Source of the DNA: Escherichia phage vB_EcoM_F1
Direction: 5' to 3' (one strand)
Length of the DNA: 64,000 nucleotides
Sequence record: NC_054912.1
Part shown: positions 20,405 through 61,326 of the stretch, in pieces
Layout: every line of letters begins with the position of its first letter
Numbering within the stretch: position 1 is the stretch's first letter
Made by a program: the position numbers and the translations under genes
The notes under the pieces: model-generated
What the model was told of the DNA's origin: nothing
Databases searched by the model: none
What the model saw: the letters and a program-made list of their open reading frames with translations, nothing else

Positions 20405-20437
20405 TATATAGTATCTCAATTTCCAATAAAAGTAAAC
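20405..20437 (-). promoter_or_regulatory. T4-type early promoter upstream of sp
   Basis: minus strand GTTTACttttattggaaattgagaTACTATATA. Confidence 0.45.
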
Positions 20438-26627: not shown

Positions 26628-26659
26628 GTATAGTACCATAGAAGAACAGGGATGTAAAC
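26628..26659 (-). promoter_or_regulatory. T4-type early promoter (TGGTACTATAC variant)
   Basis: minus strand GTTTACatccctgttcttctaTGGTACTATACaactatcaactac. Confidence 0.45.
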
Positions 26660-52591: not shown

Positions 52592-52623
52592 GTATAGTAC
52601 CACAGAGGAACGGTCTTGTAAAC
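52592..52623 (-). promoter_or_regulatory. T4-type early promoter (TGGTACTATAC variant)
   Basis: minus strand GTTTACaagaccgttcctctgTGGTACTATACaactatcaactac. Confidence 0.45.
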
Positions 52624-53029: not shown

Positions 53030-53998
53030 TTATTTCAGAAGAGTAACCTCAGCAATTTCTTCCCAACCATTTTTGTCGGTCATAATAAAGTCAGCAAGAT
53101 AAAGAGCAGTACGCAGTGAAACATTGCGTAAACGATTAACATTGACTTTCATCCATGATAATGCTTTATAAGTTTCTTCATCAGAAAGACCGCGCTTTTG
53201 CATCATGTCAGTTGAAAGAATAACATCTTCAACCCTGACCATAATTTCTTCATTAGTGTGAACACCCAAATCCAAATAAACCGAGCGGGACACTAATGCT
53301 TGTAAATGTGGAGCAAGTTTAGTACCACGGTCTAATTCGCGGTCAATGTCAACGTTTGTGATAAAAACAATCGTTCCTTTAAATTCAAACTCACGCTCAA
53401 TGCCTTTTTCTTCTAAGTAAGAAGATGCAGTGCTCCAGCAGACTTTACGGGTCTCTCCAGTGTCCAGAGCAGCTTTCAGAAGATTAAGAATGTCCATATC
53501 AGAGAAAACATCCACATCATCAATCAAAAGGACAGAATTCTCTTCACGATTATTCCAAAGCTGTTCATAAAGACCGATACCAGAGATTTTACCATTAATG
53601 CTTTTATACTCAATGTATCCAATGTCATTTGCTTTATTTAAAGCTTTATCTAAAGAATACGTTTTACCAATACCCGCCGCACCAGAGATAATTAATGAAC
53701 GAATGTTTCCGTTAATAATACCATTCGTCATCATTCCCATAACATTAAATCTTTTATTAATGCGGGTTTTCATATCTTCATATGATTCTTTAACTTCTTC
53801 AACTTTTACACCATCATATGAAATGTCTGATTTGTAAACCCAAACACCGCGACGCTTACCGTCAATTTCAACAAAAACTTTACCATCTCCTTGTGCATCT
53901 ACCGGAGCATTATCTGGGAACCATTCACCTAAGAGCTCAAAAGTTCCAGAGATTTCTTTACCGAAGTAGATACCCTTATTGATAGTTACAGTTTTCAT
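53030..53998 (-). CDS. P-loop AAA+-type ATPase (322 aa)
   Basis: Walker A GAAGIGKT, Walker B LLIDDVD, sensor-like FITN; ATG at 53998 with GGAGAA RBS (track start is GTG). Confidence 0.6.
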   Translation of the reverse strand: MKTVTINKGIYFGKEISGTFELLGEWFPDNAPVDAQGDGKVFVEIDGKRRGVWVYKSDISYDGVKVEEVKESYEDMKTRINKRFNVMGMMTNGIINGNIRSLIISGAAGIGKTYSLDKALNKANDIGYIEYKSINGKISGIGLYEQLWNNREENSVLLIDDVDVFSDMDILNLLKAALDTGETRKVCWSTASSYLEEKGIEREFEFKGTIVFITNVDIDRELDRGTKLAPHLQALVSRSVYLDLGVHTNEEIMVRVEDVILSTDMMQKRGLSDEETYKALSWMKVNVNRLRNVSLRTALYLADFIMTDKNGWEEIAEVTLLK

Positions 53999-54033
53999 TT
54001 TATTCTCCAATCTCACATTTGTTTTGATAGGGT

Positions 54034-54064
54034 AATAGTATCACACTACTACCCTTCTGTAAAC
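54034..54064 (-). promoter_or_regulatory. T4-type early promoter
   Basis: minus strand GTTTACagaagggtagtagtgTGATACTATTACC. Confidence 0.4.
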
Positions 54065-54067
54065 AAT

Positions 54068-54331
54068 TTATTTTAACGTTCGCCAAATTTTTACTGCTTC
54101 ACGGCGAGATACTTCTACAGCTCCAAGTTCTACAGCTTTTTGGCGTCGCCGAGCGTGTAAGTCATAATGTTTAATGCGTTTATCTTGAAACCAAGAACGT
54201 TTCATTCCTATTGCTTCTGCCATTTCGTGAAGCTCTTCAATATCTCCATCAGTGAACATATGACAATTTTTAGTTGGATGACCGCGAAGTTTCCATCCAT
54301 GATTCATTAAAACATCTACGTAAACTGTCAT
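54068..54331 (-). CDS. hypothetical protein (87 aa)
   Basis: track ORF. Confidence 0.45.
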   Translation of the reverse strand: MTVYVDVLMNHGWKLRGHPTKNCHMFTDGDIEELHEMAEAIGMKRSWFQDKRIKHYDLHARRRQKAVELGAVEVSRREAVKIWRTLK

Positions 54332-54477
54332 TGATTCTTCTCCAAATAAGTTTCGATAATTTTCTGGGCGAGATAAACCGCGTTATCTTCAGTTGCGTCT
54401 TCTAAGAAACTTTCAAAACACTCTGAAATTTCTTCTGTATCAATCAACTTTTTTACTTCAATTGGTGTAATTTTCAT
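54328..54477 (-). CDS. small acidic hypothetical protein (49 aa)
   Basis: manually translated MKITPIEVKKLIDTEEISECFESFLEDATEDNAVYLAQKIIETYLEKNQ; ATGA overlap with downstream gene. Confidence 0.35.
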   Translation of the reverse strand: MKITPIEVKKLIDTEEISECFESFLEDATEDNAVYLAQKIIETYLEKNQ

Positions 54478-54511
54478 TTTGTTTTCCGTTTAAGTGTTTG
54501 TTTTGATAGTT

Positions 54512-54543
54512 GTATAGTACCATAAAGCTTTATGCTTGTAAAC
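54512..54543 (-). promoter_or_regulatory. T4-type early promoter (TGGTACTATAC variant)
   Basis: minus strand GTTTACaagcataaagctttaTGGTACTATACaactatcaaaac. Confidence 0.45.
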
Positions 54544-54573
54544 AACTTTGTGAAAAATTTTTGAAATAAAAAA

Positions 54574-54591
54574 GGGAGCCCGAAGGCTCCC
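54574..54591 (-). terminator. strong stem-loop gggagcc-cgaa-ggctccc with U-run
   Basis: 7-bp GC stem, UUCG loop, minus RNA followed by uuuuuuauuuc. Confidence 0.6.
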
Positions 54592-54593
54592 TA

Positions 54594-55607
54594 TCATTTA
54601 TAATAACTTCGGTGGTTTTCAAGATAGACCTTCTCAAGGAAGTCATCCCAGAAACCCATGTCTACTTTTTGCTGCATACCGTTCTTAGAAGCTTCAGTAG
54701 ATGCTGCTTCTACTTGATCGACCACATCTTCCAAAAACTCTTGAACTGTTTTAAATGGATGCTTACCCAACTTCACGTCGAGAATAAATGGAGCATCTTG
54801 GAGTGGATAAACCAAGTCACCAGTTTTGTAAATTTCCAATAGTTGGAGTCCACCACGGCAAGCATGACTCAGAGCTTTCCAGTCAATACCTTCATTGGCT
54901 TCGGCCTTACGAGCGCGTTCACCATATTCAGCATCTAATTTGTTCAGTGACTGCTTAAGCTCAATAAGAGAAAGAGTTGTCTGATATTTACGACCCAACA
55001 CTGTGTAAAACGTCTGTGGGCCTGTTTTCTCATGATTATGGAACACCCATTCACAGAATTCGTTTTCTGGAAGACGATGCTTAATATCTTCAACTTTAGT
55101 ACGACGCTGCTTAATGGAACCGTCTTCTTGGTAATCAACCCATTGCTCAGGGATTTGATTAACTACTTTCAATACATCGCGTAATGCAGCCAAACGAGAA
55201 CCCTTAACGCCGTATTTAGAAGCTTGCTTACGGACATATCCTAAATATGATTTCATGTTAGTCGTATAAAAACGAGAACGGTTGTCTTGAATAAACTTCC
55301 ATACATCAGGCAAATCAGATTTAACCACTAGTTCAGGCGGAGTGTGAAGCATATCCAATGCTACAGTTTCACCATCTGCCGCTAATTTAAAGAAATACTT
55401 AAGACTGTATAGTTCATGGTCAATATCATCTTTAGTGTTTTTAGATGATGTGTTGTTAGTGTTTTTGCTCATATGCTCTTTAACATTTCCGATAAGAATA
55501 TCGCGAGCAGGAGGAACAAAAATTTCTTTAAAATCTACATCAGATTCTGGAGTAGAAGTTCCATAAAGATGACTACCAAAATAGCTTTTCATTACTGTTT
55601 TCATCAT
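54594..55607 (-). CDS. Pol-beta-superfamily nucleotidyltransferase-fold protein (337 aa)
   Basis: GS(x10)DVD motif FGSHLYGTSTPESDVDF plus downstream acidic residue (ALDML), followed by helical C-terminal domain. Confidence 0.55.
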   Translation of the reverse strand: MMKTVMKSYFGSHLYGTSTPESDVDFKEIFVPPARDILIGNVKEHMSKNTNNTSSKNTKDDIDHELYSLKYFFKLAADGETVALDMLHTPPELVVKSDLPDVWKFIQDNRSRFYTTNMKSYLGYVRKQASKYGVKGSRLAALRDVLKVVNQIPEQWVDYQEDGSIKQRRTKVEDIKHRLPENEFCEWVFHNHEKTGPQTFYTVLGRKYQTTLSLIELKQSLNKLDAEYGERARKAEANEGIDWKALSHACRGGLQLLEIYKTGDLVYPLQDAPFILDVKLGKHPFKTVQEFLEDVVDQVEAASTEASKNGMQQKVDMGFWDDFLEKVYLENHRSYYK

Positions 55608-56065
55608 TCAGCCTTATATTCAATAACAGGACATACTTTAGCTTTACGAGCTTTTAAAAATTCAACGATAATCGATTTCTTGGGTTGAATAGGAGGTAAA
55701 CCTTTATTTTTCCTATCAATGTTTTCTACGTGTAAAGCATAATCCTTTTTCCATTTATAATCTTTATATTTTTCACGCAAATGTACAGGAATAACAAATG
55801 AACCAATAATAAGTAAAACAAGCAAAATGGCAAGTATAAATGCTGATGGAAGCAAAGTCCATAAACTACCGAAAATAAGCCATCGTTGTAAGCTTTCTGC
55901 ACAAATAATTGTTAGCCCTACGAGTATAGCACACCCAAAAATAGAAACGAAAAATGTAGGGATAACAATAGACCAAAAATATGCGCATAGTGTCTTAGGT
56001 CGTTGCCATTCATCGTTAAACAATTTGAATAATTTATAGTGCCAAGAGTTTTCATTAATAATCAT
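55604..56065 (-). CDS. polytopic membrane protein (153 aa)
   Basis: three to four hydrophobic helices; ATGA overlap with upstream stop. Confidence 0.5.
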   Translation of the reverse strand: MIINENSWHYKLFKLFNDEWQRPKTLCAYFWSIVIPTFFVSIFGCAILVGLTIICAESLQRWLIFGSLWTLLPSAFILAILLVLLIIGSFVIPVHLREKYKDYKWKKDYALHVENIDRKNKGLPPIQPKKSIIVEFLKARKAKVCPVIEYKAE

Positions 56066-56067
56066 AA

Positions 56068-56589
56068 CTATCCTTTCATTGAAGGCGTAACAGTTGTTAA
56101 ATACTTAATCATAGCTTCAGCTTCTGATTTTGATAGTGAAATTTCTCCATTGTTTTGACGAATAGAAATAAAATCCGGATGACGGTCACCACCAGCTTTT
56201 AAAACACACATATAAGTATCAGTTTCATCTTCAATATCTGAAATGATTGAAGCAGTTCCACATGAATGTGGTTTTTGATAAATCAATACAGCTTTTCTTC
56301 CACCGTTTGACTGTTCATAAACTTTTAACACATCAAACAAATCGCTTCTTTTATCAATAGCTAAGATGTTGTTTTCATCTTCAATATTAAATCCTTCGGA
56401 TACTTCATAAAGTGTCACCCATAAATCACCAATATCAATAACAGCGTTCACTTTTCCATGACTTTCAAGAGCATTACAAATTTTCTTAATTTCATCATAA
56501 CTCATTTTAATAATATCATCTCCTTGAATAAGGAAGATGTCATTTTTAAATTCAACACGAATTAAACCACTTCCACTTGAAATAAACAT
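56068..56589 (-). CDS. hypothetical protein (173 aa), paralog of 56596..57129
   Basis: shared C-terminal segment (EAEAMIKYLTTVTPSM vs DEAIALKTYLDSVIPTM). Confidence 0.5.
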   Translation of the reverse strand: MFISSGSGLIRVEFKNDIFLIQGDDIIKMSYDEIKKICNALESHGKVNAVIDIGDLWVTLYEVSEGFNIEDENNILAIDKRSDLFDVLKVYEQSNGGRKAVLIYQKPHSCGTASIISDIEDETDTYMCVLKAGGDRHPDFISIRQNNGEISLSKSEAEAMIKYLTTVTPSMKG

Positions 56590-56595
56590 ATTTCC

Positions 56596-57129
56596 TCACT
56601 TTGAAATCATAGTTGGAATGACAGAATCGAGATAAGTCTTTAGCGCAATAGCTTCGTCTTTGGTAAATGTGACAATATACGATCGAAAATCATCAATTTG
56701 ACGAATAGTTAAGACATCACCATCTTCATAGCATTTTGATACGTTTAAAACAGTTTCATCATTCTGATTGCAAGCGTTAGTAATAATAGCATTGCAATTT
56801 TTGAGCCATTTTAAACTATGTTTTCTTTCATTAGAATAATAAAAATATTTAATCTTATCTATAAAACTATCCCAATGGATAACTGATAAACACATTGACT
56901 CACTTTTAATATTAAATCCTGGGCATGAAGAATAAAAATGAATTTTGTGCTCATCATTGATGCTTACTATTTTATCAGTATAAGGATATTCAATTTGGGT
57001 TAAATGAATGATTTCACTAGGCGTAAAATATAGCATATCGTCTTCTTGTGTCAAACGATACATATTATTTACTTTTTCTATAGCTAATTCACCAAAAAGC
57101 GGACTAACTTCTAATACTAATCGTTTCAT
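56596..57129 (-). CDS. hypothetical protein (177 aa), paralog of 56068..56589
   Basis: ATG at 57129 with AAGGA RBS; track ORF extends to 57150. Confidence 0.5.
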   Translation of the reverse strand: MKRLVLEVSPLFGELAIEKVNNMYRLTQEDDMLYFTPSEIIHLTQIEYPYTDKIVSINDEHKIHFYSSCPGFNIKSESMCLSVIHWDSFIDKIKYFYYSNERKHSLKWLKNCNAIITNACNQNDETVLNVSKCYEDGDVLTIRQIDDFRSYIVTFTKDEAIALKTYLDSVIPTMISK

Positions 57130-57130
57130 A

Positions 57131-57397
57131 TTAATCCTTTTTATTGGCACGAATTTGTTCTAAAATTTTAGAATATTCCTTTGTATCAGATTTACGTACA
57201 ATTGATACACTATAAGGCATACTATCGGTGTCTTTTATAAAGCGTTCCAAATGACACTCTAACAAAATTTCTGGATTATAAATCGTGTACATCAAATTAC
57301 CTGTTGCTCCACGATATTGGCAGATTTCTACTGATTGAACACCATTCCATAATTTTGTTAAAACTAAATCACCTACTTCTAATTTAGGAAAGCCCAT
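57131..57397 (-). CDS. hypothetical protein (88 aa)
   Basis: track ORF 57131..57409 trimmed to ATG at 57397. Confidence 0.4.
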   Translation of the reverse strand: MGFPKLEVGDLVLTKLWNGVQSVEICQYRGATGNLMYTIYNPEILLECHLERFIKDTDSMPYSVSIVRKSDTKEYSKILEQIRANKKD

Positions 57398-57398
57398 G

Positions 57399-57584
57399 TT
57401 ATTCACCAATTAAAGTTTCAATATAAGAATCAAGATTTACTTTAGCTTCTTCCATAAGAGTTTTGTATTTAATCTTGTTAGCATGTCCGGAGAAAGCTGA
57501 TTCATCAATAACTGTTGCTGTATGAACAGCTTTGCTATATGTTTCAATTAATTCTTTTAATTTAAAAGCCTGCTCACTTGTCAT
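57399..57584 (-). CDS. small helical protein (61 aa), member of a short-protein family
   Basis: N-terminus MTSEQAFKLKELIETY resembles 57912..58106, 58109..58300 and 60108..60293. Confidence 0.45.
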   Translation of the reverse strand: MTSEQAFKLKELIETYSKAVHTATVIDESAFSGHANKIKYKTLMEEAKVNLDSYIETLIGE

Positions 57585-57713
57585 TACATACTCCTTTGAA
57601 TAATATCAATAATGTTGTTCACCAGATTATAAGTAAACATTGGGTAATTATATTGAATCATCACATACACAACAAACAAAACTTTCATTCTCTTCTCCTT
57701 GGCAGTTGACAAG

Positions 57714-57746
57714 ATTACTATACCATAACCTTGCCAACTTGTAAAC
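57714..57746 (-). promoter_or_regulatory. T4-type early promoter
   Basis: minus strand GTTTACaagttggcaaggttaTGGTATAGTAAT. Confidence 0.45.
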
Positions 57747-57911
57747 CATTAAATGACGTTTTCAATAAAATTCTGAAGCTTTGTATGAGCATCAACCATG
57801 ATTTTCAATTCTTCTTTAGCGAAAGCTGTACCTCTTTCACGAGAAGAACATTCATAGTCAGAAACTGCATTAGCATATTCTTCAATTAGCTTCATTAAAA
57901 ACATCTGCTTT

Positions 57912-58106
57912 TCAGTTTTCATTATTCCACCTAATCATTTCAAGATATTGAACTAACTTAGCTTTGGATTTATCCAAATCCTTTTTAGCTGCTTCTATAC
58001 CGTCGTATGAATATCCTTCACAATGCTCAACTGCTAATTGGTATGAATCTATTTCAATATCACGTGCTAATTTAATGATTTTTTCAAACTGTTCACGTGT
58101 TAGCAT
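57912..58106 (-). CDS. small helical protein (64 aa)
   Basis: MLTREQFEKIIKLARDIEID... Confidence 0.45.
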   Translation of the reverse strand: MLTREQFEKIIKLARDIEIDSYQLAVEHCEGYSYDGIEAAKKDLDKSKAKLVQYLEMIRWNNEN

Positions 58107-58108
58107 AC

Positions 58109-58300
58109 TTACACTCTCGTATTATGATCGATAATTTCATCAAGAAACATATCTAACGCTTCTACAGCATTATTAAATTTAGCTTCAAATTCTTCAATAC
58201 CTGATAAACCTGATAAGGCAAAGTTAATGCGTTCCTCATCTGCTTTACGAATTGAAGCCACTAATTCCTTGATTTTATCCGCTTGCTCTACACTAATCAT
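58109..58300 (-). CDS. small helical protein (63 aa)
   Basis: ATG at 58300 ([17 protein letters not shown]); track ORF extends to 58336. Confidence 0.45.
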   Translation of the reverse strand: MISVEQADKIKELVASIRKADEERINFALSGLSGIEEFEAKFNNAVEALDMFLDEIIDHNTRV

Positions 58301-58488
58301 TATTCCACCACATATGAAAGAGAGAATATTGCACACGCCATGTGAGTTGCAACTTCATCACACATATCATAACGTTTCTTAAGAAGTTCTACAAGTTCTT
58401 CACTAGTGACTTCATCCATGTCGACGAAAAAATCACCATTAATGATGACATAGATATTTCCTTCTTGATTAAGTGCTTCAATTTTCAT
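58300..58488 (-). CDS. small hypothetical protein (62 aa)
   Basis: ATG at 58488 with GAGGAG RBS downstream of an early promoter; track start is TTG at 58533. Confidence 0.45.
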
Positions 58489-58514
58489 GATGTTCTCCTC
58501 TTTATCCGATGGTT

Positions 58515-58546
58515 GTATAGTATCACAGCTCAAATGGAAAGTAAAC
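58515..58546 (-). promoter_or_regulatory. T4-type early promoter
   Basis: minus strand GTTTACtttccatttgagctgTGATACTATAC. Confidence 0.45.
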
Positions 58547-58561
58547 CGGTAAAATGAAAAA

Positions 58562-58579
58562 AGTCTCCCGAAGGAGACT
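58562..58579 (-). terminator. stem-loop agtctcc-cgaa-ggagact with U-run
   Basis: 7-bp stem, UUCG loop, minus RNA followed by uuuuucauuuu. Confidence 0.55.
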
Positions 58580-58583
58580 AATG

Positions 58584-58859
58584 TTATTCGAGGGAAAGAA
58601 GATACTTACTCTGGTAAAACATTCCAGTAATATCATCTATCGTGCTTTGGATGGCTGGAGGCATTTCTTTATAAATGCTGTTAGATTGGTCTAGTATGCG
58701 ATCAATCATTTTAATTGTGTCGGTAGGAAGTTTACTAGCATCTGGAATTGAAGGTGTGTATTTTCTACCAGAATACCCCAAATATTGCTCACCAAATTTA
58801 TCAATCAAATCTGGCAACTCGGAGAAAATAAAATCGTCTAGCATAACTTTTAGTTTCAA
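58584..58859 (-). CDS. hypothetical protein (91 aa)
   Basis: track ORF. Confidence 0.45.
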
Positions 58860-58955
58860 AATGCGCAGAATGAAAATAAGCTTGTGCAGCCATTAATAAA
58901 CCTAAGTATTCATCTGCCTTTGAAGGTTTTCCACTTTGTGAAAAGTCGCTGAATT

Positions 58956-59249
58956 TCATTCAGTCTCCAATTTAATGTTCATAATTCTAGCGTATGATTG
59001 TGCCATCTCCGCGCCTCGCTCTATACATTCAAAATCGGAAGAGCACGGGTCATTTTTATAAGTCGTTCGCATAAAACTATAGAACTGTTCAGATGATTCT
59101 ACGCTTTTATTTTCAAAAAGCATATAAACGTGTCTAATACCAGATTCCATAAATTTATCAAAATGAGGATCGACATTCGCTTCAATTGGTGGAGATAAAG
59201 CAAACGCTAATCCTAGCATGGCAAATAGTGCCGTTGCTTTTAAGGCCAT
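58956..59249 (-). CDS. rI: lysis-inhibition regulator rI (periplasmic antiholin)
   Basis: 97 aa with N-terminal signal-anchor MALKATALFAMLGLAFALSP; recognised as T4 RI. Confidence 0.8.
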   Translation of the reverse strand: MALKATALFAMLGLAFALSPPIEANVDPHFDKFMESGIRHVYMLFENKSVESSEQFYSFMRTTYKNDPCSSDFECIERGAEMAQSYARIMNIKLETE

Positions 59250-59261
59250 AAAGGCCTCCTA

Positions 59262-59474
59262 TCATTTTTGTCCTGTATTTACTTTATGCCGATGCACGGC
59301 CTTAACTTTATCAAGGTATTTTTCAAAATTTCGCAATCTAGTATAGTCTGCCGGAGATTGGTTGAGTGATACTTCTCGACGCAAAGCTGAAATGATATTT
59401 CCAACTTCCCTACGAATTTCATCTAATTGAAGAACAGTAAGATTGCAAAGTTGCTTTTCAGTTAATTGTAGCAT
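59262..59474 (-). CDS. hypothetical protein (70 aa)
   Basis: track ORF. Confidence 0.45.
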
Positions 59475-59516
59475 ATATACCCCTTTAGTTAGATAAACCT
59501 ATTTATAACTTTTGCA

Positions 59517-60098
59517 CTAACCGAGCTTTTTAGTTAATTCGTTCCAATGTTTTCTACACAAAGAAACATAAATTTCATCACCAATACAGATTTGATTACC
59601 TTCTTTAACTGGTGTTCCATCTTCCATTAATCGAGCTGTCATAATAGCTTTTTTACCACAATGACAAACTGCCTTTAGTTCAATAAGTTTATCTGCAATC
59701 GCCAAAAGTTCTTTAGAACCTTCAAATAATTTTCCAGCGAAATCAGTCCTTAATCCATAAGCCATAACAGGAACATTATATGTATCAACAATTCGGCTTA
59801 ATTGATGCACTTGTTCAGTTTTTAAAAACTGAGCTTCATCTACAAATACGCAATGAATATCTTTTTGTGCTTCAGCCCATTTATAGAACTCGAAAATATC
59901 CATATCATCTGTAATAATATTCGCTTCCTGCTTAATTCCAATGCGAGAAACGACTTCACAGACAGAATCGCGAGTATCAATAGCGGGTTTAAGAACTAAT
60001 ACACTCATTCCACGTTCTTTATAATTATGTGCGGCAGTCAAAAGAGAAGCAGATTTTCCAGCATTCATTGCTGCATAAGTAAAAATTAAACTCGCCAT
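59517..60098 (-). CDS. tk: thymidine kinase
   Basis: 193 aa; P-loop AAMNAGKS; C-terminal Zn site CHCG...C; recognised as T4 Tk. Confidence 0.9.
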   Translation of the reverse strand: MASLIFTYAAMNAGKSASLLTAAHNYKERGMSVLVLKPAIDTRDSVCEVVSRIGIKQEANIITDDMDIFEFYKWAEAQKDIHCVFVDEAQFLKTEQVHQLSRIVDTYNVPVMAYGLRTDFAGKLFEGSKELLAIADKLIELKAVCHCGKKAIMTARLMEDGTPVKEGNQICIGDEIYVSLCRKHWNELTKKLG

Positions 60099-60107
60099 AT
60101 CACCTTC

Positions 60108-60293
60108 TTAAAGCGTATTCACATAAGCTATTAATTCATTTTCTTTCTTATCAAACCGATCAGCAAATTCTTCCTGCTGTTCGGGAGATAACGGGCCGTA
60201 TTCATCATAAAAGGTGTTTGCTTCTGTATGCTCATCTAGAAGTTCATGGATAAGCTCAAATAATTTATCTTTTTGTTCTTTACTCAGACTCAT
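60108..60293 (-). CDS. small helical protein (61 aa)
   Basis: MSLSKEQKDKLFELIHELL..., same short-protein family as 57399..58300. Confidence 0.45.
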   Translation of the reverse strand: MSLSKEQKDKLFELIHELLDEHTEANTFYDEYGPLSPEQQEEFADRFDKKENELIAYVNTL

Positions 60294-60459
60294 ATATTAA
60301 TTTCCAGGAGTTTTAAAATAATTCGCTTTTGCTTAAATATTTCCATAGTTAAATGACCAGTATCTTTTTGACCGATTCCAATGGCAAAACCTTTATTAAC
60401 AGCGAGTTCAATTAAATTATCAAGCTCACGTAACACTTCGTATTGTAACTCAAAACTAT

Positions 60460-60666
60460 TCATTTTGGTTTACCTTCTTTAACGAAATCTGGATAAGGAT
60501 AAAATCCCGAATAAAATCCTTCACCTTTATGATTGATACATCCTTTATTAGAACAATAGCACCAATAATCGAAATCACAAGCCATTTCATCGTTGCATAA
60601 AGCAAAAACAACCGGCCACTTACACTTTTCACAATGGGCATTTTTAAGAATACTAGTTTGGCTCAT
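60460..60666 (-). CDS. Cys-rich small protein (probable Zn-binding)
   Basis: CEKC...C...C.C..C motif; ATG at 60666 overlapping upstream stop (ATGA); track ORF extends to 60687. Confidence 0.45.
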   Translation of the reverse strand: MSQTSILKNAHCEKCKWPVVFALCNDEMACDFDYWCYCSNKGCINHKGEGFYSGFYPYPDFVKEGKPK

Positions 60667-60875
60667 AACCATGTCACCTTCAAGCAATATTCTTCTACGT
60701 GCTGTTTGCGACCTTTCTTATCAATAAAGGTATATTCAACGAATGTTCCAATGTAGTCTTTATCTACATCATGTAGACTATTAATTGGGCATTTAGTACG
60801 GCAAATGCGTTCCCATTGACGAATAATTTCTGCTTTGTTTTTAGGATCAAACGGATGCGGGTAATGCACTTTCAT
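60663..60875 (-). CDS. hypothetical protein (70 aa)
   Basis: track ORF. Confidence 0.45.
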   Translation of the reverse strand: MKVHYPHPFDPKNKAEIIRQWERICRTKCPINSLHDVDKDYIGTFVEYTFIDKKGRKQHVEEYCLKVTWL

Positions 60876-61326
60876 AATCCACCACTATTAAATCAATATC
60901 AGGAGTAAACATGTCGATTAATTTAGAAACCTTATCCCAATCACCGCCAGCAATACCACAACCTATGCGTGGAATGTAAATTACTGGTTTAAACAAAAGG
61001 GTTTCTGCCTGTAGATTTAATTCTATCATGCAGTTTACTAAAGCACCATAATCAAGATTAGGACCTGGTTCGTATTGCGTATACAAGTTATAACATATGC
61101 CAAAACCATTAGGTTTATGTTTAAAAACAATAGACATATCACCGAGTTTTTCACGCGAACCATATTCAGTAGTAGTTTTATCTATTTCTAAAATTTTAGG
61201 ATAGGCCCTTGCTAATTGACCAGCTACACCACTGCCCATTGTATGAAAACAATTGCATCCATGCGCAATATTTTTACCTTCAGCGAAAAGGGCGACAATA
61301 TCGCCCTTGATATATTTTACAATCAT
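60847..61326 (-). CDS. macro-domain protein (predicted ADP-ribose binding/hydrolase)
   Basis: 159 aa with HGCNC...GSGVAG and GCGIAGGDW glycine-rich loops typical of macro domains. Confidence 0.6.
   Translation of the reverse strand: MIVKYIKGDIVALFAEGKNIAHGCNCFHTMGSGVAGQLARAYPKILEIDKTTTEYGSREKLGDMSIVFKHKPNGFGICYNLYTQYEPGPNLDYGALVNCMIELNLQAETLLFKPVIYIPRIGCGIAGGDWDKVSKLIDMFTPDIDLIVVDYESALPASV

What the first reader, a model, noticed from the sequence alone, without database searches (positions are those of the whole stretch)
53030..56065. Cluster of AAA+-type ATPase, nucleotidyltransferase-fold protein and polytopic membrane protein
Within about 3 kb: a P-loop ATPase (Walker A GAAGIGKT, Walker B LLIDDVD), an 87-aa protein, a 49-aa acidic peptide, a 337-aa protein with a Pol-beta-type nucleotidyltransferase signature (GS-x10-DVD plus downstream Asp) and a multi-pass membrane protein. 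Each gene junction is an ATGA overlap, suggesting translational coupling. Nucleotidyltransferase plus membrane or ATPase partners is a recurring architecture in nucleotide-signalling defence and counter-defence modules; that interpretation is speculative.
Basis: partly seen in the sequence, partly recalled or inferred. Interest (0 to 1): 0.6.

Follow-up and report, generated by a model that had tools for sequence, protein, structure and literature searches.

The report
T4 nrdC.10–nrdC.11 accessory gene patch
This stretch is the already catalogued nrdC.10–nrdC.11 region of a T4-like coliphage: an RNA-repair-type nucleotidyltransferase, an unrelated AAA+ ATPase and small swappable gene cassettes that sit side by side but are not one machine.

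Summary
The window is a Tequatrovirus, 100% identical to Escherichia phage vB_EcoM_FN. All five ORFs and their motifs are real. The claim that every junction is an ATGA overlap holds for only 2 of 4. A strong terminator and two T4 early promoters split the region into at least three transcription units.

- **337-aa protein:** this is T4 NrdC.11. It belongs to the RlaP nucleotidyltransferase family (PF10127), whose characterised members add 1–2 nucleotides to RNA 3'-OH ends. Bacterial homologues sit beside RtcB, Pnkp ligase, Ro60 and a second RlaP. It shows no CD-NTase, OAS or CCA-adding-enzyme similarity.
- **ATPase:** this is T4 NrdC.10, a true AAA+ protein of unknown function. It lies near the NTase in 34 of 78 viral loci and in 0 of 80 bacterial loci.
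- **49-aa + DUF4031 pair:** this is a promoter-flanked portable cassette. T4 lacks it, and it has been exchanged between phage lineages.
- **Membrane protein:** it has two predicted TM segments, and T4 has the mobD homing endonuclease in its place.

The most likely role of NrdC.11 is to restore nucleotides trimmed from damaged tRNA before Pnk/Rnl1 ligation. The genes are already known and of low interest. The nucleotide-signalling module reading is not supported.

The parts
55604..56065 (-). 153-aa membrane protein with two predicted TM segments and a basic C-terminal tail. Its stop overlaps the NTase start (ATGA).
   Evidence: ORF and hydropathy. phrog_944 'membrane protein', E 3e-51. T4 has the mobD HNH homing endonuclease at this position. 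Homologues lie within 10 kb upstream of the NTase in 44-46 of 78 viral loci and in 0 of 80 bacterial loci.
54594..55607 (-). NrdC.11, an RlaP-family (PF10127) Pol-beta nucleotidyltransferase. Layout: NTase domain (1 to about 115), long helix (119-151), beta insert (155-209), helical C-domain (214-336).
   Evidence: 98% identical to T4 NrdC.11. Pfam RlaP E 2.5e-11, 44.2 bits against cut-off 23; 40/40 relatives hit RlaP. G11, S12, D23, D25 and D63 are invariant. AF2 pLDDT 93.5. Structural neighbours are HalB, 3c18 and KNTase. hhalign against canonical RlaP gives 92.8% probability.
54567..54592 (-). Intrinsic terminator directly after the NTase stop: GGGAGCC-TTCG-GGCTCCC followed by T6.
   Evidence: Terminator scan. 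RNA fold -17.7 kcal/mol, z = -4.4 against shuffles. The hairpin is identical in T4.
54514..54543 (-). T4-type early (sigma-70) promoter, GTTTACA-N17-TACTAT with a TG extension. It drives orf49 and DUF4031. Together with the hairpin it forms a PeSL-type element.
   Evidence: The motif occurs 6 times in the window, all on the gene strand, against 0.02 expected. The PeSL concept comes from PMC2839356 and PMC4122927.
54328..54477 (-). orf49, an acidic 49-aa protein (pI 4.2). It is the first gene of a portable two-gene cassette, and its stop overlaps the DUF4031 start (ATGA).
   Evidence: phrog_6888 E 5.5e-31. Absent from T4. A 44-45% identical homologue stays immediately upstream of DUF4031 at a different genomic position in Klebsiella and Citrobacter-type phages.
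54068..54331 (-). DUF4031 protein, 87 aa, basic (pI 9.7), function unknown. It is the second gene of the cassette.
   Evidence: Pfam PF13223 E 8e-22. Invariant D6, H24, Q49 and H55-Y56-D57 in 31 sequences. Found in 325 phage records. Cassette DNA is 89-90% identical to loci L037, L038 and L047, whose NTase and ATPase DNA is only 68-71% identical.
54035..54064 (-). Second early promoter, GTTTACA-N17-TACTAT, driving the ATPase. It forms the right-hand repeat that bounds the cassette.
   Evidence: The T4-window alignment places both insertion breakpoints in the promoter -10 / CTATCAAAAC repeats.
53030..53998 (-). NrdC.10, an AAA+ ATPase (322 aa from the ATG). Layout: N-terminal beta domain (1-61), linker helix, AAA+ core and helical lid.
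   Evidence: 99% identical to T4 NrdC.10. phrog_1250 E 1e-166. Walker A, Walker B, N215, R184 and R238 are invariant in 27 sequences. AF2 pLDDT 88.5. Foldseek returns only generic AAA+ hits: RuvB, dynein, NSF, sigma-54 activators, RFC, ORC and Hda, at 12-17% identity.

Best explanation
The region is a piece of the hyperplastic early-gene region of a T4-like phage. Several independent accessory genes lie next to each other there. It is not one functional module.

**Three transcription units (inferred from sequence):**
1. The membrane protein and NrdC.11, ending at a strong terminator.
2. An early promoter driving orf49 and DUF4031. This is a promoter-flanked, horizontally exchanged cassette.
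3. An early promoter driving the NrdC.10 AAA+ ATPase.

**The NTase.** NrdC.11 is an RlaP-family nucleotidyltransferase. [quoted passage not shown] The probable substrate is the 5' half of a tRNA whose anticodon loop was cut and trimmed by a host anticodon nuclease of the RloC type. The phage's own Pnk and Rnl1, encoded about 80 kb away, could then heal and seal a full-length tRNA.

**The ATPase.** NrdC.10 is an early-expressed AAA+ protein with an unknown substrate. I see no evidence that it needs NrdC.11.

**Shown versus inferred.** Shown: gene identities, family membership, catalytic residues, folds, the promoter/terminator sequences and the presence/absence patterns. Inferred: the enzymatic activity, the RNA substrate and the anti-RloC role.
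For: **Identity.** The window is 100% identical to vB_EcoM_FN and 97-98% identical to many Tequatroviruses. The ORFs map to T4 nrdC.10 and nrdC.11.

**RlaP membership.**
- Pfam PF10127 scores above its gathering threshold, and 40/40 diverse relatives match it.
- hhalign against canonical RlaP gives 92.8% probability, E 4e-7, over 169 columns.
- G11, S12, D23, D25 and D63 are invariant.
- The preprint PMC12776372 names T4 NrdC.11 as RlaP cluster 5. It shows that Pseudomonas RlaP adds 1-2 NMP to RNA 3'-OH, prefers Mn2+, and restores aminoacylation of a tRNA missing one nucleotide.

**RNA-repair context.** Of 80 bacterial and archaeal loci with a full-length NrdC.11 homologue, 30 carry an RNA-repair neighbour within 6 kb. 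A canonical RlaP is present in 20, RtcB in 10, Pnkp ligase in 5 and Ro60 in 4.

**Repair partners in the same phage.** The genome encodes Pnk and Rnl1. RloC excises the wobble nucleotide, which was proposed to defeat T4 Pnk/Rnl1 repair (PMC2610378).

**Not a module.**
- A terminator and two early promoters cut the region.
- T4 lacks orf49, DUF4031 and the membrane protein.
- ACG-C40 carries an extra ModB-like gene at the same spot.
- The ATPase is near the NTase in 34/78 viral loci and 0/80 bacterial loci.
- The ATPase occurs with no NTase in the 12-13 kb loci fetched from a Vibrio phage and an Asteriusvirus.
- Cassette DNA is 89-90% identical where the flanks are 68-71%.

**Dispensability.** nrdC.11-mobD.3 can be deleted from T4 (PMC9825161).
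Against: - No experiment on NrdC.11 itself is known to me or was found.
- The Pfam match covers only residues 7-135. The C-terminal 200 residues, including a beta insert, do not align to canonical RlaP, so substrate or product could differ.
- In this phage the NTase is not next to an RNA ligase.
- Wherever the ATPase is present in T4-like phages, it lies downstream on the same strand (34 loci). A lineage-specific functional link therefore cannot be excluded.
- The promoters and the terminator are sequence predictions only.
Confidence: 0.7

Rival explanations
1. NrdC.10 and NrdC.11 form a T4-lineage-specific functional pair. The AAA+ ATPase would remodel or deliver damaged RNA or RNP substrates, or regulate the NTase.
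For: When present, the ATPase is always downstream of the NTase on the same strand, 112-2290 bp away. This holds in 34 viral loci, including Acinetobacter phages whose NTase is only about 51-54% identical. Both genes carry early-promoter signals.
Against: - The two genes are separated by a terminator and an independent promoter.
- Variable unrelated cassettes are inserted between them.
- Close relatives with an 82% identical NTase lack the ATPase: L021, L023 and L054.
- RB43- and KVP40-type phages have the NTase with no ATPase in the 13-kb loci fetched.
- A Vibrio phage and jumbo Asteriusviruses have the ATPase with no NTase in the loci fetched.
- 0 of 80 bacterial NTase loci have the ATPase.
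- T4-like genomes are broadly syntenic, so adjacency alone is weak evidence.
Confidence: 0.12
2. NrdC.11 is a nucleotidyltransferase with a different substrate or product from RlaP-type repair. Possibilities include tRNA 3'-CCA end mending, tailing of host or phage RNAs, or nucleotidylation of a small molecule or protein, as KNTase/ANT and MNT enzymes do.
For: Only the N-terminal 130-180 residues align to RlaP. The C-terminal domain has its own invariant residues, R231, K244, H248 and R251. It resembles HEPN-type helical domains, as in KNTase. Structural neighbours include aminoglycoside and lincosamide NTases.
Against: The neighbourhoods of bacterial homologues are enriched for RNA ligases and RNA quality-control genes, not resistance or toxin-antitoxin genes. 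Pfam places all 40 relatives in RlaP and in no other family at E <= 0.001. The match to the MntA antitoxin is negligible (E 0.06).
Confidence: 0.12
3. One reading: the membrane protein, NTase and ATPase form a nucleotide-signalling defence or counter-defence module. It would be CBASS-, OAS- or Hailong-like, for example a HalA/HalB-type membrane-effector-plus-NTase pair.
Against: - No PADLOC hit for any of the five proteins.
- No cGAS, CD-NTase or OAS structural similarity.
- There is no sequence-level link to HalB.
- The membrane protein is only 153 aa. It is absent from the T4 locus and from all 80 bacterial NTase loci, and is often separated from the NTase by 1-3 genes.
- Bacterial homologues sit in RNA-repair contexts.
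Confidence: 0.05

Closest known systems
Phage T4 genes nrdC.10 and nrdC.11 (NC_000866: NP_049708, NP_049709)
   Same: The window proteins are 98-99% identical to these T4 proteins, in the same order and orientation. The terminator and early promoter after nrdC.11 are also the same.
   Different: The window phage has a roughly 480-bp orf49 + DUF4031 + promoter insertion between the two genes. It also has a 2-TM membrane protein and a second y05I-like paralogue where T4 has the mobD homing endonuclease.
RlaP family (PF10127), e.g. Pseudomonas fluorescens and P. aeruginosa RlaP (Carruthers, Fatma & Huang 2025, PMC12776372)
   Same: NrdC.11 scores above the Pfam threshold and keeps the GS...DxD...D catalytic set. 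It has an N-terminal NTase domain plus a helical C-domain. Its bacterial relatives lie next to RtcB or Pnkp. The preprint explicitly names NrdC.11 as an RlaP.
   Different: NrdC.11 is about 80 residues longer than the canonical RlaPs aligned here (about 250-277 aa), with a beta insert (155-209). Only about 170 columns align, and the C-terminal domain was not aligned by hhalign. It is not next to a ligase in the phage. In bacteria this long form often sits beside a canonical RlaP rather than replacing it. Its activity has not been tested.
T4 Pnk-Rnl1 tRNA repair against the PrrC anticodon nuclease
   Same: Both are phage-encoded counter-defences that restore cleaved tRNA. Pnk and Rnl1 are present in this same phage genome.
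   Different: Pnk and Rnl1 heal and seal a simple nick. The proposed NrdC.11 step would first replace nucleotides removed by an RloC-type nuclease. That step is an inference and has not been demonstrated.
Hailong HalB/HalA (Tan et al. 2025, as summarised in PMC13434031)
   Different: Identity is 16% and no sequence-profile link exists. HalB is about 220 aa and makes protein-primed oligo-dA. The membrane partner here is small, dispensable and not conserved with the NTase outside T4-like phages.
PeSL (promoter-early stem-loop) ORFan cassettes of T4-type phages (Arbiol et al. 2010, PMC2839356; Comeau et al. 2014, PMC4122927)
   Same: A stem-loop terminator plus a sigma-70-like early promoter flanks small variable ORFs in a hyperplastic region. 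The indel breakpoints lie in the repeated promoter sequence.
   Different: The second repeat (54035-54064) has the promoter but only a weak, imperfect stem. Minicircle formation was not tested.
CD-NTases, cGAS and OAS (CBASS-type signalling)
   Same: They share only the Pol-beta superfamily core motif.
   Different: No profile or structural match was found, and there is no cyclic-nucleotide effector domain nearby.

Membership tests
RlaP (PF10127) nucleotidyltransferases | Scores above the curated Pfam gathering threshold | tested here: met
   44.2 bits against a cut-off of 23, E 2.5e-11. All 40 relatives at 34-54% identity also match, with best E 2e-19. PF10127 is also the precomputed family for all 120 close homologues.
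RlaP (PF10127) nucleotidyltransferases | Three strictly conserved catalytic carboxylates of the Pol-beta NTase motif | tested here: met
   D23, D25 and D63 are present in 40/40 sequences, as are G11 and S12. They align to GS...SDYD...D of canonical RlaP.
RlaP (PF10127) nucleotidyltransferases | N-terminal NTase domain plus C-terminal helical domain, homologous over the full length | tested here: inconclusive
   The AF2 model shows an NTase domain and a helical C-domain, but with an extra beta insert at 155-209. hhalign covers only NrdC.11 residues 6-182 (92.8% probability). No RlaP structure was available to superpose.
RlaP (PF10127) nucleotidyltransferases | Genomic association with RNA ligase or RNA repair genes | tested here: met
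   Not met locally: Pnk and Rnl1 lie about 80 kb away in the same phage. Met for homologues: 30 of 80 bacterial or archaeal loci have RtcB (10), Pnkp ligase (5), Ro60 (4) or a canonical RlaP (20) within 6 kb. Rnl1, Pnk or RtcB lies within 10 kb in 6 of 78 viral loci.
RlaP (PF10127) nucleotidyltransferases | Adds 1-2 NMP to RNA 3'-OH and prefers Mn2+ | not testable with these tools
   This activity was shown only for the Pseudomonas enzymes.
CD-NTase / cGAS / OAS signalling enzymes (CBASS-like) | Profile or structural similarity to the CD-NTase, OAS or cGAS catalytic domain | tested here: not met
   [not shown]
CD-NTase / cGAS / OAS signalling enzymes (CBASS-like) | An adjacent effector with a nucleotide-sensing domain, conserved with the NTase | tested here: not met
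   The neighbours have no such domains. Their co-occurrence with the NTase is variable.
Hailong (HalA/HalB) | A HalB-like NTase | tested here: inconclusive
   [not shown]
Hailong (HalA/HalB) | A conserved tyrosine that primes oligo-dA synthesis | tested here: inconclusive
   Y328 is present in 33/40 relatives but lies inside the predicted last helix (317-336). The terminal Y335/Y336 are not conserved.
Hailong (HalA/HalB) | An obligate partner membrane channel with a cytoplasmic DNA-binding crown | tested here: not met
   The membrane protein is 153 aa with 2 TM segments. It is absent from the T4 locus and from all 80 bacterial NTase loci. It is often 350-1840 bp away from the NTase.
AAA+ ATPases (NrdC.10) | Walker A, Walker B, a sensor-1 polar residue, conserved arginines and a C-terminal helical lid | tested here: met
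   GxxGxGKT, hhhhDD, N215, R184 and R238 are invariant in 27 sequences. The AF2 model shows an alpha/beta core plus a lid. Foldseek probability is about 1.0 to RuvB, NSF, PspF, RFC and others. No specific clade could be assigned.
Single translationally coupled operon or module | Overlapping or tightly coupled junctions with no internal transcription signals | tested here: not met
   Only 2 of 4 junctions overlap. There is a terminator at 54573-54592 (dG -17.7, z -4.4) and early promoters at 54514-54543 and 54035-54064.
Single translationally coupled operon or module | Components co-occur across relatives | tested here: not met
   All tested presence/absence combinations occur among close relatives. 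None of the partners accompanies the NTase in bacteria.
PeSL-flanked ORFan cassette (orf49 + DUF4031) | Flanked by repeated early-promoter (+/- stem-loop) elements, and polymorphic between close relatives with breakpoints in the repeats | tested here: met
   The T4-window alignment places both breakpoints in the repeats. The pair occupies two different positions in different phages. Cassette DNA identity is 89-90% against 68-71% for the flanks.

The most novel reading that the evidence does not exclude
NrdC.11 might not be a tRNA-mending enzyme. It could be a HalB-like polymerase that makes short (deoxy)oligonucleotides, with the co-translated 2-TM protein as its partner. One version is a phage-borne decoy that supplies oligo-dA to keep host Hailong-type channels closed, or a phage-carried Hailong-like exclusion system. 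A milder version is that the long NrdC.11-type RlaP works as an obligate pair with a canonical RlaP in bacteria. That would define a two-enzyme nucleotide-restoration step that phages have reduced to a single protein.
Probability: 0.05. Interest if true: 0.75.

Novelty: already known. Interest (0 to 1): 0.2.

Why it matters
T4's Pnk/Rnl1 tRNA repair is the classic example of phage counter-defence. Whether T4 also carries an answer to nucleotide-excising anticodon nucleases such as RloC has been an open but already stated question (PMC2610378; PMC12776372). NrdC.11 is the obvious candidate, and a deletion-plus-plating experiment could test it directly. Others have already made this proposal, and the genes are catalogued T4 genes. 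What this analysis adds is mainly negative: the neighbouring ATPase, membrane protein and DUF4031 cassette should not be read as partners of the NTase. One modest new observation is that long NrdC.11-type RlaPs in bacteria often sit in tandem with a canonical RlaP next to RtcB, Pnkp or Ro60.

Tried and rejected
- **PDB sequence searches** found no relative for the NTase alone, the ATPase alone, the NrdC.11-family profile or the canonical RlaP profile. The PfRlaP crystal structure is not in the PDB copy.
- **PADLOC** gave no hit for any of the five proteins. **NCBIfam** gave only sub-threshold noise. **Rfam** found nothing in the whole window.
- **Foldseek on the ATPase** gave only generic AAA+ matches, so no clade or function could be assigned.
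- **DUF4031:** there is essentially no literature. All homologues found are small standalone proteins. Three distant genomic contexts (a mycobacterial genome locus next to DUF5131 and an ADP-ribosylating-toxin-domain gene, and two metagenomic contigs) showed no recurrent partner. A toxin-antitoxin reading of orf49 + DUF4031 (acidic upstream, basic downstream, 4-bp overlap) therefore remains unsupported speculation, and I dropped it as an explanation.
- **Papers not held:** the primary Burroughs & Aravind 2016 and Tan et al. 2025 (Hailong) papers. RlaP naming and Hailong details come from secondary sources.
- **Literature searches** for nrdC10/nrdC11 spellings found nothing further. One paper search failed on a term that was too short.
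- **CBASS-, OAS- and CCA-type readings** of the NTase were considered and rejected on profile and structure evidence.

Full report
**What the window is.** The sequence has about 34% GC and nearly all genes lie on the minus strand. The 3.8-kb stretch around the finding is 100% identical to Escherichia phage vB_EcoM_FN. It is 97-98% identical to many other Tequatroviruses, and 745 phage records match it. Comparison with T4's own annotation maps the P-loop protein to T4 nrdC.10 and the 337-aa protein to T4 nrdC.11, at 98-99% amino-acid identity.

**Checking the observation.** All five ORFs exist at the stated coordinates on the minus strand.
- The Walker A motif (GAAGIGKT), the Walker B motif (VLLIDDVD) and the GS-x10-DVD motif are present.
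- The downstream catalytic Asp is D63. G11, S12, D23, D25 and D63 are invariant in 40 relatives that share only 34-54% identity with the window protein.
- The 49-aa protein is acidic (pI 4.2) and the 87-aa protein is basic (pI 9.7).
- All five are conserved proteins found in 161 to 1516 phage records, so they are real genes.

Three points need correcting.
1. Only two of the four junctions are ATGA overlaps: membrane/NTase and orf49/DUF4031.
2. The ATPase most likely begins at the ATG at 53998, which has a GGAG Shine-Dalgarno 7 nt upstream, giving 322 aa.
3. The membrane protein has two long hydrophobic segments and a basic tail. It is not clearly polytopic.

**Transcription signals split the cluster.**
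- Directly after the NTase stop lies GGGAGCC-TTCG-GGCTCCC followed by T6. It folds at -17.7 kcal/mol, z = -4.4 against shuffles.
- Next comes a T4-type early promoter, GTTTACA-N17-TACTAT with a TG extension, at 54514-54543.
- A second copy of the same promoter lies at 54035-54064, just before the ATPase.
- The pattern GTTTAC-N17-19-TACTAT occurs six times in the window, always on the gene strand, against 0.02 expected.

By sequence, the region therefore contains at least three transcription units. This has not been checked by transcript mapping.

**The small ORFs are a portable cassette.**
- T4 has only 114 nt between nrdC.11 and nrdC.10. Aligning T4 with the window shows a clean insertion of about 480 bp. 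It consists of orf49, DUF4031 and the second promoter, and both breakpoints lie in the repeated promoter -10/CTATCAAAAC sequence.
- This is the architecture described for PeSL cassettes: an early promoter plus a stem-loop flanking variable ORFs in the hyperplastic regions of T4-type phages (PMC2839356, PMC4122927).
- In phage ACG-C40 an additional ModB-like ADP-ribosyltransferase gene occupies the same spot.
- In Klebsiella-type phages a 44-45% identical orf49 homologue remains immediately upstream of DUF4031, but the pair lies 2-3 kb beyond the ATPase.
- In loci L037, L038 and L047 (probably Enterobacter phages of the CC31 type, judging from contig size and), cassette DNA is 89-90% identical to the window. 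The flanking NTase and ATPase DNA is only 68-71% identical. This indicates horizontal exchange.
- DUF4031 itself has no known function. Homologues are small standalone proteins with invariant D6, H24, Q49 and H55-Y56-D57 and no consistent neighbours.

**The nucleotidyltransferase: family.**
- Pfam places the protein in RlaP (PF10127, 'RNA repair pathway DNA polymerase beta family') at 44.2 bits against a threshold of 23.
- All 40 diverse relatives match RlaP and no other family at E <= 0.001.
- A profile-profile comparison with 11 canonical RlaPs gives 92.8% probability (E 4e-7) over 169 columns and aligns the catalytic motifs.

**The nucleotidyltransferase: structure.**
- The AlphaFold model (pLDDT 93.5) has an NTase domain, a long helix, a beta insert (155-209) and a helical C-domain.
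- No cGAS, CD-NTase, OAS or CCA-adding enzyme appears among the top 50-60 hits.
- PADLOC finds nothing.

**The nucleotidyltransferase: literature.**
- A 2025 preprint on RlaP (PMC12776372) explicitly lists T4 NrdC.11 as an RlaP (its cluster 5).
- It shows that two Pseudomonas RlaPs add one or two NMPs to RNA 3'-OH ends, prefer Mn2+ and prefer nicked-tRNA mimics.
- They also restore aminoacylation of a tRNA that had lost one anticodon-loop nucleotide. The authors propose RlaP as the antidote to nucleotide-excising ribotoxins such as RloC.
- The same idea appears in a comparative study of jumbo phages (PMC7824862).
- The RloC paper had proposed that excision of the wobble nucleotide would defeat T4's Pnk/Rnl1 repair (PMC2610378).

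**Independent context test.** I fetched 80 bacterial and archaeal loci that encode full-length NrdC.11-like proteins at 31-54% identity.
- Thirty have an RNA-repair gene within 6 kb. A canonical RlaP (252 bits to PF10127) lies directly downstream in 20, RtcB is present in 10, Pnkp kinase-phosphatase-ligase in 5 and Ro60 in 4.
- None has a homologue of the ATPase, the membrane protein, orf49 or DUF4031.
- The window phage itself encodes Pnk and Rnl1, about 80 kb from nrdC.11.

This supports an RNA-repair role for the NrdC.11 clade and argues against the proposed partners.

**The ATPase.**
- NrdC.10 is well conserved (53-100% identity among the 120 best homologues).
- Walker A, Walker B, N215 and several arginines are invariant.
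- The model (pLDDT 88.5) shows a small N-terminal beta domain, a linker helix, an AAA+ core and a helical lid.
- Foldseek gives only generic AAA+ matches at 12-17% identity: RuvB, dynein, NSF/Sec18, sigma-54 activators, RFC/Rad24, ORC and Hda. Its function therefore stays unknown.

Distribution of the ATPase relative to the NTase:
- Among 78 viral loci with an NrdC.11 homologue, the ATPase lies within 10 kb in 34. It is always downstream on the same strand, with a 112-2290 bp spacer filled by varying small ORFs.
- It is missing from some close relatives (82% identical NTase) and from every locus where the NTase is below 50% identity.
- RB43 and a KVP40-like vibriophage have the NTase with no ATPase in the fetched loci. 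A Vibrio phage and Asteriusvirus jumbo phages have the ATPase with no NTase in the fetched loci.

The adjacency is therefore lineage synteny, not a conserved pairing. A T4-specific functional link cannot be ruled out.

**The membrane protein.**
- It belongs to phrog_944.
- It is directly adjacent to the NTase only in close relatives and is separated by 1-3 genes in others.
- The T4 locus lacks it and has mobD there instead.
- A membrane protein gene coupled to a gene for a HalB-like fold recalls the Hailong defence system, so I treated that as a rival explanation. The similarity to HalB is no stronger than to other minimal NTases. There is no sequence link. The partner is small and dispensable. 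The bacterial homologues point to RNA repair.

**Conclusion.**
- The finding is the known nrdC.10-nrdC.11 segment of a T4-like phage, plus variable cassettes.
- The NTase-fold call was correct.
- The family is RlaP, already named in the literature for T4.
- The likely function is nucleotide restoration on damaged tRNA ahead of Pnk/Rnl1 ligation. That is a counter-defence role, but not a signalling one.
- The 'cluster' is a mosaic of independently transcribed and independently inherited genes.
- nrdC.11-mobD.3 can be deleted from T4 (PMC9825161), which fits an accessory role.
- Novelty: already known. Interest: low.

Noticed in passing
L148:6001-7814 and 19 other bacterial loci (e.g. L099, L113, L125, L128, L147, L152, L162, L164, L172, L174): In bacteria, the long NrdC.11-type RlaP is often followed directly on the same strand by a canonical ~255-aa RlaP (PF10127, 252 bits). 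RtcB, Pnkp ligase or Ro60 sometimes lie nearby. A tandem pair of two different RlaPs suggests a division of labour or a heterodimer. I did not find this described in the papers I could read.
   Followed up: partly
window 54068-54477; L037, L038, L047: The orf49 + DUF4031 cassette is 89-90% identical at DNA level to loci whose flanking NTase and ATPase genes are only 68-71% identical. This indicates recent horizontal exchange of the cassette between T4-like lineages.
   Followed up: yes
L175:2735-3220 (Escherichia phage vB_EcoM_ACG-C40): A 161-aa ModB-like ADP-ribosyltransferase gene is inserted at the same nrdC.11/nrdC.10 intergenic hotspot, upstream of the orf49 + DUF4031 cassette. Near-identical phages therefore carry 0, 2 or 3 extra genes at this spot.
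   Followed up: partly
window 56068-56589 and 56596-57150: Two tandem paralogues of the T4 y05I/MobD.1-like 'putative transcription factor' (Pfam T4_y05I_N and T4_y05I_C) lie just upstream of the membrane protein. The T4 stretch examined (55000-61000) has one copy (mobD.1) plus the mobD HNH homing endonuclease.
   Followed up: partly
window 54068-54331: DUF4031 has invariant D6, H24, Q49 and an H55-Y56-D57 motif across 31 sequences down to 43% identity. This looks like an active site, but no function or structure is known.
   Followed up: partly
window 20408-20437, 26630-26659, 52594-52623, 54035-54064, 54514-54543, 58517-58546 (all minus strand): There are six exact matches to the T4 early-promoter pattern GTTTAC-N17-19-TACTAT, against 0.02 expected by chance. 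All lie on the gene strand.
   Followed up: partly
[not shown]
   Followed up: no
L008:6001-6741 (Asteriusvirus UE-S1) and similar jumbo coliphages: NrdC.10 homologues in roughly 360-kb jumbo phages match only from residue 79 onward. They lack the N-terminal beta domain, and no NrdC.11 homologue lies within the 12.7-kb locus fetched.
   Followed up: no
Database records seen: Annotation errors have propagated. Many nrdC.x genes, including the NTase and the ATPase, are labelled 'thioredoxin'. RefSeq also names T4 mobD.4 and the y05I-like genes 'molybdopterin-guanine dinucleotide biosynthesis protein MobD', apparently because of the gene-symbol clash.
   Followed up: no
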